From a virus (Duplodnaviria > Heunggongvirae > Uroviricota > Caudoviricetes): DNA of 16,694 nucleotides. The position numbers and the translations under genes were made by a program. The stretch spans positions 1-16,694 of the IMG/VR virus record IMGVR_UViG_2563366825_000009. One strand, 5' to 3'. Position 1 is the stretch's first letter. The number at the start of each line of letters is the position of its first letter. The notes under the pieces were generated by a model that saw nothing but the letters and a program-made list of their open reading frames with translations, made no database searches and was not told where the DNA came from. Of the stretch, positions 12,816-14,443 are shown piece after piece.

Positions 12816-13766
12816 ATGTTCGATATCGTTGAATTTGTTAAGCAGCAGGAGCGCTTTTTCTGCGAGGCATTAACTGAACCGACGCTGACATGGGCGAAGG
12901 AAAGTCAGTTTGCAATTCAGCAATTCCAGAAAAATGCCTTTCTGGCTGACACAGCACGGGCAAATCTGCCCAGCGCACAGAACGCTATCATCAATGTTGC
13001 CGCCATCGGCATAACCCTGAACCCGGCCAGCAAGCTGGCGTATCTGGTCCCACGAAAAAAGGCTGTATGCCTGGATATCAGTTATATGGGGCTTCTGCAT
13101 CTGGCACAGGTCACAGGAGCCATTCAGTGGGGGCAATGCAAACTTGTTTACGAGAAGGACATTTACGAGTCCAACGGTATTGACTGCGCCCCCACGCACA
13201 AATACAACCCATTCGTCGACAGGGGCGCACGCATTGGCGGTTATTGTGTCGTAAAAACATCCGAAGGCGACTATCTGACCGAAGAGATGAGCAACAGGGA
13301 AATCGAGGTCATCAGGGCGTGCAGCAAAGCCGGAAATAACGGAGGAAGTAGCCCGTGGGATAGCTTCCCGGATGAAATGGCCCGCAAAGCCATTGTTAAA
13401 CGCGCCAGCAAATACTGGCCCCGTCGCGATCGCCTGGATACAGCTATCGACTACCTGAACACTCAGGCCGGTGAAGGTATTATCCTGAATGCTGATCACA
13501 TCCCTGAGCGCGACGTCACTCCCGCATCAGATGAGATTATCAATGAGATCACTCAGGCAATCACCGAAATCAACAAGAAATGGGATGACCTGCTTCCCGT
13601 ATGTTCCAAAACATTCCGTCGCACGATTGCATCACATGAAGCTCTCTCTCAGGAAGAAGCTGTCAAAACGCTTGATTTTGTCAAAAAGAAAGCTGCCAGA
13701 AACAAGGCCACGGCGGAAGCGAAAGTTCACGCCACCACGGAAAATAACAGCGAGGCCGTGTCATGA
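12816..13766 (+). CDS. recT: RecT-family single-strand annealing protein with a lambda Bet-like C-terminal tail (316 aa)
   Basis: Core motif [33 protein letters not shown] matches the RecT signature (SKAGNNGPW...EMAKKTAIRRLFKYLP). C-terminal about 80 aa (ERDVTP...[16 protein letters not shown]...[17 protein letters not shown]) parallels the lambda Bet C-terminus as recalled. Start at the ATG at 12816; the stop overlaps the exo start (ATGA). Confidence 0.8.
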
Positions 13767-14443
13767 CACCAGAAATTATTCTCCAGCGAACTGGCGTGGA
13801 TATTACCAGCCTCGACCAGGGCGATGATGGATGGCACAAGCTGAGACTCGGTGTTATCACTGCTTCAGAAGTTCACAACGTCATAGCCAAACCACGTTCA
13901 GGCAGCAAATGGCCTGATACAAAAATGTCATACTTCCACACCCTGCTGGCTGAAGTTTGTACTGGCGTGGCACCGGAAGTTAACGCTAAGTCGCTCGCAT
14001 GGGGAAAGCAATACGAAGATGATGCCCGTGCCCTCTTCGAATTTATCGCGGATGTTACCGTCTCGGAAACGCCAATAATTTTTCGTGACGAAAGCATGCG
14101 CACCGCCTGCTCTCCCGATGGTTTATGCAGTGACGGTAACGGTCTTGAGCTTAAATGCCCTTTTACTTCCCGCGACTTCATGAAATTCCGGCTTGGCGGC
14201 TTTGACGCTATCAAGCCTGCTTACATGGCCCAGGTGCAATTCAGCATGTGGGTTACAGACAAGGACGCCTGGTACTTCGCCAACTACGACCCACGTATGA
14301 AGCGTGAAGGCCTGCATTATGTCGTGGTCGAGCGGGATGAAAAGTACATGGCGAATTTTGACGAGATGGTGCCGGAGTTCATCGAAAAAATGGACGAGGC
14401 ACTGGCTGAAATTGGTTTTGTATATGGGGAGCAATGGCAATGA
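13763..14443 (+). CDS. exo: Lambda-type exonuclease (Exo/Red-alpha), 226 aa
   Basis: Near-identical over the full length to lambda Exo as recalled ([47 protein letters not shown]...[20 protein letters not shown]...[10 protein letters not shown]). Confidence 0.95.

What the first reader, a model, noticed from the sequence alone, without database searches (positions are those of the whole stretch)
12816..14443. Mosaic annealase: RecT-type core carrying a lambda Bet-like C-terminal tail, paired with a lambda-type exonuclease
The annealase core carries the RecT signature rather than the lambda Bet core, while its last about 80 residues parallel the lambda Bet C-terminus. In characterised annealase/exonuclease pairs the annealase C-terminus is the contact for the cognate exonuclease, so a Bet-like tail beside a lambda-type Exo suggests domain shuffling that keeps the tail matched to the exonuclease while the DNA-annealing core is swapped. 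This is based on recalled sequences and needs alignment.
Basis: partly seen in the sequence, partly recalled or inferred. Interest (0 to 1): 0.45.

Follow-up and report, generated by a model that had tools for sequence, protein, structure and literature searches.

The report
RecT-core annealase with Bet tail
This prophage's DNA-annealing protein is a real two-part mosaic: a RecT-type DNA-binding body joined by a floppy linker to the small lambda Bet-type docking domain. In related phages that docking domain always travels with the neighbouring lambda-type exonuclease while the body is swapped.

Summary

- **Core.** ORF 12816-13766 (316 aa) has a RecT-family core at aa 1-202. It passes TIGR00616, does not hit the Bet model TIGR01913, and its predicted fold is closest to Listeria RecT.
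- **Linker and tail.** A disordered linker (aa 203-231) leads to a three-helix C-terminal domain (aa 232-299). That domain is about 50% identical to the lambda Bet CTD and superposes on it at 0.6-0.9 A.
- **Exonuclease.** The gene overlaps by ATGA an exonuclease (13763-14443) that is 87% identical to lambda Exo.

Across 160 related loci, Bet-like tails always sit beside a lambda-type Exo. The same core carrying a different tail has no exonuclease. Pairwise divergence of tail and Exo correlates (r=0.91). Core and Exo do not correlate.

An E. coli recombinant (L170) switches parents inside a shared 26-nt stretch (window 13395-13420) at the end of the core. An ERF-core annealase also carries this tail with a lambda-type Exo.

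- The architecture is widespread and includes phage phi80.
- The tail was not recently taken from lambda.
- Physical linkage alone could explain part of the tail-Exo matching.

The genes are already in databases. A 2025 paper proposed partner-domain shuffling but did not analyse it. Interest is moderate.

The parts
12518..12799 (+). gamL, a GamL-type host nuclease (RecBCD) inhibitor and the first gene of the gam-annealase-exo recombination module
   Evidence: PHROG 1050, E 1e-48. It is 74% identical to phi80 GamL. RefSeq annotates the equivalent gene as gamL.
12805..12808 (+). AGGA Shine-Dalgarno-like motif 7 nt upstream of the annealase ATG
   Evidence: Read directly from the sequence.
12816..13421 (+). 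Annealase core, aa 1-202: the RecT-family ssDNA-annealing domain, ending in VKRASKYWP
   Evidence: PF03837 86.9 bits. TIGR00616 65.8 bits, above its cutoff, with no TIGR01913 hit. 33% identity to Rac RecT. The AF2 model has pLDDT of about 90 here, and its best PDB fold match is Listeria RecT 7ub2, E 4e-6.
13395..13420 (+). 26-nt stretch identical between this gene and the exonuclease-less 'tail C' annealase genes. It is the crossover site seen in recombinant L170.
   Evidence: The exact 26-mer occurs once in the window and in 38 loci of both types. L170 is about 98% identical to L004 up to this stretch and 92-100% identical (mostly 100%) to the window after it.
13422..13508 (+). Interdomain region, aa 203-231: a short helix (204-215) followed by a disordered linker
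   Evidence: AF2 pLDDT is below 50 for residues 214-231. Similarity to RecT ends at aa 202, and the strong similarity to Bet begins at aa 225-233.
13509..13712 (+). Bet (Red-beta) type C-terminal three-helix domain, aa 232-299: the predicted docking module for Exo and probably for host SSB
   Evidence: phmmer E 1e-17 to 8tfu and 6m9k. Foldseek target-normalised TM-score 0.87-0.94, rmsd 0.6-0.9 A, about 50% identity. Pocket residues are V262, T266, F288 and V289, against L223, I227, F249 and L250 in Bet.
13713..13766 (+). 17-residue C-terminal extension (aa 300-316) plus the stop codon. Among the sequences examined it occurs only in the E. coli Stx-type tails (the window, P0001, P0003). The stop TGA overlaps the exo ATG.
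   Evidence: Alignments; sequence.
13763..14443 (+). Lambda-type 5'-3' exonuclease (Red-alpha/Exo homologue), translationally coupled to the annealase
   Evidence: 87% identity to lambda Exo over all 226 aa. PF09588 YqaJ 99.5 bits. R28, R45, L78, D119, E129 and K131 are unchanged in the alignment. I assign their roles (catalysis, 5'-phosphate binding, DNA tracking) partly from my own knowledge. Helix E reads A90, L91, F94, I95 against T90, L91, F94, T95 in lambda.
14434..14598 (+). DUF1317 gene, the lambda orf60a homologue. DNA similarity to lambda ends here.
   Evidence: PF07026, E 2e-33. blastn similarity between the window and lambda spans 13762-14597 at 84.7%.

Best explanation
The annealase is a two-domain protein. 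Residues 1-202 form a RecT-family ssDNA-annealing core. A flexible linker (203-231) connects it to a Red-beta-type three-helix C-terminal domain (232-299).

By homology with the lambda Exo-Bet CTD crystal structure, the CTD is expected to clamp helix E of the adjacent lambda-type exonuclease. [quoted passage not shown] The CTD probably also binds the C-terminal tail of host SSB.

In evolution, the CTD-coding segment and exo behave as one cassette. Different annealing cores (Red-beta, at least two RecT-type lineages, and ERF) have been joined to this cassette. The joins arise by recombination at the conserved end-of-core motif or in the linker.

Shown here: the architecture, the co-inheritance of tail and Exo, and one precise crossover. 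Inferred: physical docking of this tail on this Exo, and selection for matched pairs.
For: Architecture:
- Family profiles, pairwise alignments and PDB matches split the protein cleanly into a RecT-type core and a Bet-type tail.
- The AF2 model has mean pLDDT 82 with a disordered linker at 214-231.
- Foldseek matches the core to RecT 7ub2 and the tail to 6m9k/8tfu at rmsd 0.6-0.9 A. Red-beta 1-177 is not among the 50 best hits.

Partner:
- Exo is 87% identical to lambda Exo, and the annealase stop overlaps the exo start as ATGA.

Co-inheritance:
- In 66 unique pairs, Mantel r is 0.908 for tail-Exo, 0.187 for core-Exo and 0.202 for core-tail.
- In 13 representatives the values are 0.905, -0.12 and -0.18.
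- Three of the five tail classes occur on two or three RecT core classes, and all but the lambda-like class (paired with three Exo classes) go with a single Exo class.
- 25 of 26 Bet-like tails have an adjacent lambda-type Exo, against 0 of 16 for tail C.
- Tail C loci carry a Mu-Gam-like gene in the exonuclease position.

Crossover:
- L170 equals the tail-C phage L004 (about 98%) up to the shared 26-mer, then matches the window at 92-100%, mostly 100%, through the tail and most of exo.

Third core type:
- An ERF core carries the Bet-like CTD and is followed by a 75%-identical lambda-type Exo.

Interface:
- The residues defined in PMC6393309 differ by class on both sides.
- Exo contact positions are more class-variable than other Exo positions (3.62 vs 2.28 distinct class-consensus residues, p=0.003).
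- 6 of the 30 window-versus-lambda Exo differences fall in helix E residues 86-99 (p=0.005, window chosen post hoc).

Function:
- The phi80 homologue, 54% identical with the same architecture, is a genetically proven recombinase.
Against: - No binding or recombination data exist for this protein pair.
- The tail is only about 53% identical to Bet's, while Exo is 87% identical. Four pocket residues and several polar contacts differ (V262, T266, V289, K265, K291, R295), so docking is inferred, not shown.
- CTD contact residues are no more class-variable than the rest of the CTD.
- The tail-coding DNA abuts exo, so linkage alone predicts some co-inheritance.
- Within the lambda-like class, tail identity ranges from 53% to 80% for Exo identities of 85-90%. 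The coupling is therefore not strict.
- The prophage carries an IS21-family insertion upstream in the same operon region. Expression in this particular host is therefore uncertain.
Confidence: 0.8

Rival explanations
1. Linkage only. The tail co-varies with Exo simply because its coding DNA lies directly next to exo. Crossovers happen at the conserved end-of-core motif for purely mechanical reasons. The CTD's main job is SSB binding, and there is no pair-specific matching to the exonuclease.
For: - The tail and exo are contiguous and overlap by ATGA.
- The observed crossover uses a 26-nt island of identity.
- The Bet CTD binds SSB at a site overlapping its Exo site (PMC6393309; PDB 8tfu).
- CTD contact residues are not more variable than the rest of the CTD.
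- Tail identity varies from 53% to 80% for similar Exo identity within the lambda-like class.
Against: - All the hosts are Enterobacterales. From my own knowledge their SSB C-tails are essentially identical. SSB binding alone would therefore not drive the tails into classes as low as 16-34% identical.
- Those classes map almost one-to-one onto Exo classes.
- Exo contact positions on helix E are enriched for class-specific changes (p=0.003).
- When the exonuclease is absent, the Bet-like fold is replaced by a different tail.
- Mutations of the lambda interface abolish complex formation and impair recombination (PMC6393309).
Confidence: 0.15
2. There is no mosaic. The protein is a uniformly diverged member of one lineage, either Bet or RecT, and the C-terminal resemblance reflects ancestral retention.
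For: Bet and RecT both belong to Pfam PF03837, and both share the PW...M motif region.
Against: - Core identity to Bet is 18% with no TIGR01913 hit, yet tail identity is 53%. The normally conserved domain is far more diverged than the tail.
- Rac RecT lacks the domain altogether.
- Core and tail distances are uncorrelated.
- Nearly identical cores carry unrelated tails: P0003 and P0097, and L170 against L004.
- An ERF core carries the same tail.
Confidence: 0.03
3. The genes are decaying remnants in a defective prophage, and the module no longer functions.
For: An IS21-family element sits in the early-left region upstream. In 36 Stx2a phage records, similarity to the window stops short of the tail's end, and about 36 fewer records match exo. 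In the one record examined (L175), an IS3-family element truncates the annealase at aa 230.
Against: - Both ORFs are full length with coupled start and stop codons.
- The key Exo residues are intact.
- The annealase is 95-100% identical to genes in about 60 complete Stx and other inducible phages, and to a cluster of 831 member sequences.
Confidence: 0.05

Closest known systems
Phage lambda Red system (Gam, Bet/Red-beta, Exo/Red-alpha) and the Exo-Bet CTD complex (PDB 6M9K)
   Same: - The gene order is gam-annealase-exo, and the annealase stop overlaps the exo start.
- Exo is 87% identical to lambda Exo.
- The annealase carries the same three-helix CTD (about 50% identity, rmsd 0.6-0.9 A).
- F249 and the hydrophobic pocket are retained on the CTD, and L91 and F94 are retained on Exo helix E.
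   Different: - The annealing core is not Bet-type: no TIGR01913 hit and 18% identity.
- Gam is the GamL type, not lambda Gam.
- The interface residues differ on both sides. Exo has T90A and T95I. The CTD has L223V, I227T, L250V, Q252K and E256R.
- There is a 17-residue C-terminal extension.
Phage phi80 Rec ('RecT-phi80') with phi80 Exo and GamL
   Same: The architecture and gene order are the same. The annealase is 54% identical overall and GamL is 74% identical. Only the last 76 residues of phi80 Rec match lambda Bet (74% identity). phi80 Rec was shown genetically to be a recombinase (PMC3945230).
   Different: phi80 Rec belongs to a different RecT-core sublineage ('QAAKYWP' rather than 'RASKYWP' at the core end). 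Its tail is much closer to lambda's (74% against 53%). It lacks the C-terminal extension.
Rac prophage RecT/RecE
   Same: The core is in the same family (TIGR00616), with 33% identity over aa 56-202.
   Different: Rac RecT has only a short C-terminal segment with no Bet-like domain, and it pairs with RecE rather than a lambda-type Exo. The window protein scores 71.8 bits against a cutoff of 296 on the RecT equivalog model NF007351.
Exonuclease-less RecT-type annealases of Salmonella/Klebsiella P22-like or HK140-like phages (P0097 type)
   Same: The core is 73% identical in protein and shares the identical 26-nt end-of-core stretch.
   Different: The tail is an unrelated C-terminal sequence ('tail C'). 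There is no exonuclease, and the next gene is Mu-Gam-like (Sipho_Gp157).

Membership tests
RecT family of single-strand annealing proteins (PF03837 / TIGR00616) | Profile match above the curated cutoff over the annealing domain | tested here: met
   PF03837 86.9 bits (cutoff 24), aa 31-204. TIGR00616 65.8 bits (cutoff 52.65), aa 30-202.
RecT family of single-strand annealing proteins (PF03837 / TIGR00616) | RecT-like fold of the N-terminal domain | tested here: met
   The AF2 core has pLDDT of about 90. The best PDB match is Listeria RecT 7ub2 (E 4e-6, 206 aligned columns, target-normalised TM-score 0.56). RAD52 matches are much weaker, and Red-beta 1-177 is not in the top 50.
RecT family of single-strand annealing proteins (PF03837 / TIGR00616) | ssDNA annealing and recombination activity | not testable with these tools
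   The only evidence is by homology. The phi80 homologue (54% identity) is a functional recombinase (PMC3945230).
Rac RecT orthologue (NF007351 equivalog) | Full-length match above the equivalog cutoff | tested here: not met
   71.8 bits against a cutoff of 296.
Lambda Bet / Red-beta (TIGR01913 equivalog) | Bet-type N-terminal annealing domain | tested here: not met
   There is no TIGR01913 hit at E<=0.1, whereas lambda Bet scores 169.5 bits. Core identity to Bet is 18%.
Red-beta C-terminal domain (three-helix bundle, PDB 6M9K/8TFU; no Pfam or NCBIfam model found) | Sequence and fold homology to Bet residues 195-261 | tested here: met
   phmmer E 1e-17. Foldseek target-normalised TM-score 0.87-0.94, rmsd 0.6-0.9 A, 49-52% identity.
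Red-beta C-terminal domain (three-helix bundle, PDB 6M9K/8TFU; no Pfam or NCBIfam model found) | Hydrophobic pocket (L223, I227, F249, L250) that receives Exo helix E | tested here: inconclusive
   F249 is kept. L223V and L250V are conservative changes. I227T is not, and it is accompanied by T95I on the Exo side. Binding was not measured.
Red-beta C-terminal domain (three-helix bundle, PDB 6M9K/8TFU; no Pfam or NCBIfam model found) | Physical binding to the cognate exonuclease and to the SSB C-tail | not testable with these tools
   Supported only indirectly, by the strict co-occurrence of the tail with an adjacent lambda-type Exo.
Lambda exonuclease family (PF09588 YqaJ / TIGR03033) | Full-length homology with the catalytic and DNA-handling residues retained | tested here: met
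   87% identity over 226 aa. R28, R45, L78, D119, E129 and K131 are unchanged in the alignment. PF09588 scores 99.5 bits. TIGR03033 scores 54.6 bits, below its cutoff of 68.05.

The most novel reading that the evidence does not exclude
The Red-beta-type CTD and the lambda-type Exo form a portable 'adaptor plus nuclease' cassette that can be attached to any Rad52-superfamily annealing core (Red-beta, RecT lineages, ERF).

The CTD/helix-E interface of this cassette has diversified into several mutually orthogonal specificity classes: lambda-like, Stx/window-like, Morganella-like and Yersinia-like.

If so, partner choice in phage recombinases is encoded in a module of about 70 residues. That would explain why one core type is found with Exo, with RecE or with no nuclease. 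It would also provide natural orthogonal annealase/exonuclease pairs for recombineering.
Probability: 0.45. Interest if true: 0.65.

Novelty: new variant of a known kind. Interest (0 to 1): 0.45.

Why it matters
A 2023 structural review states that it is unknown whether RecT-type annealases use a Bet-like CTD to bind their partners (PMC11611040). [quoted passage not shown]

The data gathered here address both points:
- A large group of RecT-core annealases, and at least one ERF-core annealase, carry the Bet CTD.
- That domain tracks the exonuclease and not the core.
- A recent crossover can be mapped to a 26-nt stretch at the domain boundary.

Practically, this suggests that the exonuclease compatibility of recombineering annealases, and perhaps their SSB compatibility, could be re-engineered by swapping about 70-100 C-terminal residues. 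It also shows that database labels for these proteins ('Bet', 'RecT') each describe only half of the protein.

Tried and rejected
- **Tail profile search, word-indexed database.** It returned only 15 short fragments and said nothing about which cores carry the tail.
- **phmmer of the tail against 1.84 billion representatives.** It gave only 19 hits, because clusters are represented by one protein each. It did reveal the ERF+CTD protein P0141. Several other hits (P0137, P0140, P0150) look like engineered or misassembled lambda Bet derivatives and were ignored.
- **Contig of P0141.** No DNA was available for it. A relative, L173, was used instead.
- **AF2 prediction of a CTD-Exo fusion.** I considered this as a docking test but dropped it. 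The tool returns no coordinates or PAE, so the interface could not be inspected.
- **Zakharova 2024 (SSB-CTD structure) and Rotman 2012 (phi80 genome).** Neither paper is held, so SSB-contact residues were not mapped. I could not check whether the phi80 genome paper had already noted the chimera.
- **IS-truncated annealase in Stx2a phages.** This is an IS3-family insertion or deletion. I do not count it as evidence for domain-boundary recombination.
- **Longer ORF starting at 12747.** Rejected. It overlaps gamL, homologues start at MFDIVEF/MSNIVEF, and the RBS precedes 12816.
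Full report
**What is in the window**

The window is part of a lambdoid (Stx-phage-like) E. coli prophage. On the minus strand it carries Q, NinG, a primase, a helicase and Cro. On the plus strand it carries CI, an inserted IS21-family element, an AntA-like gene, kil, gamL, the annealase, exo and a DUF1317 gene.

The finding covers two overlapping plus-strand ORFs:
- **Annealase, 12816-13766 (316 aa).** The longer ORF starting at 12747 is not the gene. It would overlap gamL, and all homologues start at MFDIVEF or MSNIVEF. 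An AGGA lies 7 nt before the 12816 ATG, and RefSeq calls the same 316-aa protein 'RecT family recombinase'.
- **Exonuclease, 13763-14443 (226 aa).** The annealase stop overlaps the exo start as ATGA, the same arrangement as lambda bet and exo.

**Check of the observation**

The core is RecT-type and not Bet-type:
- PF03837 matches aa 31-204 at 86.9 bits.
- The RecT subfamily model TIGR00616 scores 65.8 bits, above its cutoff of 52.65.
- The Bet equivalog model TIGR01913 gives no hit, although lambda Bet scores 169.5 bits on it.
- BLASTP against Rac RecT aligns aa 56-202 at 33% identity (E 7e-20).
- The protein is not a Rac RecT orthologue. It scores 71.8 bits on NF007351, whose cutoff is 296.

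The tail is Bet-type:
- BLASTP against lambda Bet aligns only aa 178-300 (E 6e-23).
- A phmmer search of every PDB chain returns only the Bet C-terminal domain entries 8tfu and 6m9k, over aa 225-299 (E 1e-17).
- No Pfam or NCBIfam model covers this tail.

An AlphaFold2 model built on 61 homologues has mean pLDDT 82. It shows a confident core, a disordered stretch at residues 214-231, and a confident helical C-terminal domain. Foldseek against the PDB gave three results:
- The core's best match is Listeria phage RecT 7ub2 (E 4e-6).
- The tail matches 6m9k and 8tfu with target-normalised TM-score 0.87-0.94, rmsd 0.6-0.9 A and about 50% identity.
- The Red-beta N-terminal structure is not among the 50 best matches.

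The exonuclease is 87% identical to lambda Exo over its whole length, and residues R28, R45, L78, D119, E129 and K131 are unchanged. I assign the roles of those residues partly from my own knowledge.

Measured against lambda, identity is therefore 18% in the core, 53% in the tail and 87% in Exo. It lies in aa 203-231.

**How widespread it is**

Near-identical copies of the gene pair occur in 62 phage records and 143 complete E. coli genomes. The phage records include Stx2a-converting phages, Shigella phage Ss-VASD and phages PA2, P13374 and TL-2011c.

The protein family is much wider. Homologues with 55-66% identity over 92-95% of the length occur in Serratia, Yersinia, Morganella, Providencia, Proteus, Klebsiella and others.

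Phage phi80 Rec has the same architecture. It is 54% identical to the window protein, and only its last 76 residues match lambda Bet, at 74% identity. 'RecT-phi80' has been shown genetically to be a recombinase (PMC3945230).

So this is not a one-off recent chimera. It is a common architecture whose two-part nature is hidden by annotations that call it either 'Bet' or 'RecT'.

**Evidence for shuffling**

Reading the homologues shows that closely related cores carry different tails:
- a Bet-like tail;
- more diverged Morganella-type and Yersinia-type versions of the Bet-like tail;
- an unrelated 'tail C' in Salmonella and Klebsiella phages.

I fetched 80 loci from species-representative genomes and 80 from IMG/VR using a core alignment. 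I then scored the core, the tail and any neighbouring Exo.

*Presence or absence of the exonuclease.* In the species-representative set, 25 of 26 proteins with a Bet-like tail have a lambda-type Exo gene starting at or near their stop codon. The single apparent exception, L038, is an ORF-calling artefact. The two apparent exceptions in the IMG/VR set are a contig end (L119) and an Exo displaced about 630 nt downstream (L123). None of the 16 tail-C proteins has an Exo (Fisher p=1e-10). Tail-C genes are followed instead by a Mu-Gam-like (Sipho_Gp157) gene.

*Divergence.*

| Comparison | 66 unique pairs | 13 representatives |
|---|---|---|
| Tail vs Exo | r=0.908 (0/2000 permutations) | r=0.905 (0/5000) |
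| Core vs Exo | r=0.187 | r=-0.12 |
| Core vs tail | r=0.202 | r=-0.18 |

Three of the five tail classes occur on two or three RecT core classes ('RASKYWP' and 'QAAKYWP' cores). All but the lambda-like class, which pairs with three Exo classes, go with a single Exo class.

*A mapped crossover.* Locus L170, from an E. coli assembly, is about 98% identical in DNA to a tail-C Salmonella phage locus (L004) from upstream of the gene to a 26-nt stretch, GTTAAACGCGCCAGCAAATACTGGCC, which encodes VKRASKYWP. After that stretch it is 92-100% identical, mostly 100%, to the window through the tail and most of exo. The 26-mer lies at window 13395-13420. It is identical in the window type and in the tail-C phages, although their cores are only about 74% identical in DNA.

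*A third core type.* A search with the tail alone found an annealase with an ERF core (PF04404) and a Bet-like CTD. In a related viral contig, L173, that gene is followed with overlap by an Exo 75% identical to lambda Exo.

The CTD-plus-Exo unit is thus found on Red-beta, RecT and ERF cores.

**Mechanism**

The lambda Exo-Bet CTD crystal structure is described in PMC6393309. Helix E of Exo (T90, L91, F94, T95) wedges into a pocket of the CTD (L223, I227, F249, L250). Mutating L91, F94, L223 or F249 abolishes the complex and impairs recombination. The same surface binds the SSB C-tail.

| Class | Exo helix E (lambda positions 90, 91, 94, 95) | CTD pocket (Bet positions 223, 227, 249, 250) |
|---|---|---|
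| Lambda | T, L, F, T | L, I, F, L |
| Window | A, L, F, I | V, T, F, V (window V262, T266, F288, V289) |
| Morganella | M, T, F, Y | F, K, M, L |
| Yersinia | F/L/M, L, F, E | A, L/M, S, M |

The two residues shown to be essential on each side are kept or conservatively changed in the window pair. The T95I change in Exo is accompanied by I227T and L250V in the CTD, which is a plausible volume swap.

Exo contact positions are more class-variable than other Exo positions (p=0.003). Six of the 30 window-versus-lambda Exo differences fall in residues 86-99 (p=0.005, window chosen post hoc).

I therefore consider it most likely that the window CTD docks on the window Exo as in 6M9K and loads the RecT-type core onto the resected 3' strand. 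This step is inferred from homology and co-variation. It has not been shown.

**Caveats and rivals**

- The tail-coding DNA is contiguous with exo, so linkage alone predicts some co-inheritance.
- The mapped crossover used a local island of DNA identity, which is a mechanical reason for the breakpoint position.
- CTD contact residues are not more variable than the rest of the small, fast-evolving CTD.
- Within the lambda-like class, the tail varies from 53% to 80% identity for Exo identities of 85-90%. Exchange between compatible tails and Exos may therefore occur.

Against a pure linkage or SSB-only reading:
- Hosts that, from my own knowledge, share essentially the same SSB tail harbour tail classes as low as 16-34% identical, and those classes map onto Exo classes.
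- The Bet-like fold is replaced altogether when there is no exonuclease.

Uniform descent is excluded by the discordant core and tail distances and by near-identical cores carrying unrelated tails. The direction of transfer, meaning which core first owned the CTD, cannot be decided from these data.

The window tail shows no DNA similarity to lambda. Similarity starts exactly at the exo start (13762) and ends at 14597. The tail was therefore not recently borrowed from lambda.

**Comparison with the literature**

- Caldwell et al. 2019 reported that CTD sequence comparisons revealed no significant homology to other known proteins (PMC6393309).
- A 2023 review says it is unknown whether RecT and other annealases use a similar CTD (PMC11611040).
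- A 2025 survey of 325 lambdoid phages notes that one annealase sequence type occurs with Exo (phi80), with RecE or with no nuclease. [quoted passage not shown]

I found no paper describing the RecT-core or ERF-core plus Bet-CTD chimeras, or the tail-Exo co-variation. The phi80 genome paper and the 2024 SSB-CTD paper were not available to me.

**Verdict**

The genes are already sequenced and annotated many times, one homologue has been studied genetically, and the general idea has been anticipated. This is a new variant of a known kind, not something categorically new.

The quantitative demonstration of a portable CTD-Exo cassette, the mapped crossover and the ERF example are useful. They are directly testable and relevant to recombineering design. 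Interest is 0.45.

Noticed in passing
window 7861-10443: An IS21-family insertion sequence sits in the prophage early-left region between cI and the antA-like gene. It has istA at 8055-9596 (rve + Mu-transposase C domain), istB at 9608-10357, and imperfect multi-repeat terminal inverted repeats at about 7861-7954 and 10376-10443. Related prophages lack it.
   Followed up: partly
window 14595-15347: A 250-aa ORF lies directly after the DUF1317 gene. It has no Pfam hit but matches PHROG 887 'queuine tRNA-ribosyltransferase' (E 2e-99). It is Tgt/DpdA-like and may be a 7-deazaguanine DNA-modification gene. Similarity to lambda stops at 14597, and similarity to most Stx phages stops at about 14437, just before this ORF.
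   Followed up: partly
L004 1263-2631 (Salmonella; also L134-L169 and others): A closely related RecT-type core (identical in P0003 and P0097, 73% identical to the window's) carries an unrelated C-terminal 'tail C' in a very common Salmonella/Klebsiella phage group. These loci have no exonuclease. The next gene overlaps by 16 nt and is Mu-Gam-like (PF05565 Sipho_Gp157, PHROG 253). Tail C may be the adaptor for a different partner.
   Followed up: partly
L173 3492-4924 (IMGVR_UViG_3300026487_000228); protein P0141: An ERF-superfamily annealase core (PF04404, about 80 bits) is fused to a Bet-like CTD (46% identity to Bet 188-254). It is followed with overlap by a 226-aa Exo 75% identical to lambda Exo.
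   Followed up: yes
L175 3001-5586 (Stx2a-converting phage LC727844.1), the one examined of 36 Stx2a phage records with only a partial tail match: An IS3-family element (IS629/IS1203-like ORFs) truncates the annealase after aa 230. The CTD, exo and downstream genes up to window position about 15886 are deleted. The count of 36 is inferred from hit counts, not checked record by record.
   Followed up: partly
It has the same chimeric architecture: only its last 76 residues match lambda Bet (74% identity), and the core matches the window core family.
   Followed up: yes
proteins P0137, P0140, P0150; loci L015, L016: Database oddities. One protein is a Gam N-terminus fused to the Bet CTD, and two are lambda Bet proteins with internal deletions. 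These are probably engineered constructs or misassemblies. Enterobacterial-type annealase genes also appear on about 1.9-kb contigs of Micromonospora and Streptomyces assemblies, which is probably contamination.
   Followed up: no
window 13763-14443 versus lambda exo: The 30 amino-acid differences from lambda Exo cluster in two places: residues 12-23 near the N-terminus (7 differences) and helix E residues 86-99 (6 differences). The N-terminal cluster is unexplained.
   Followed up: no
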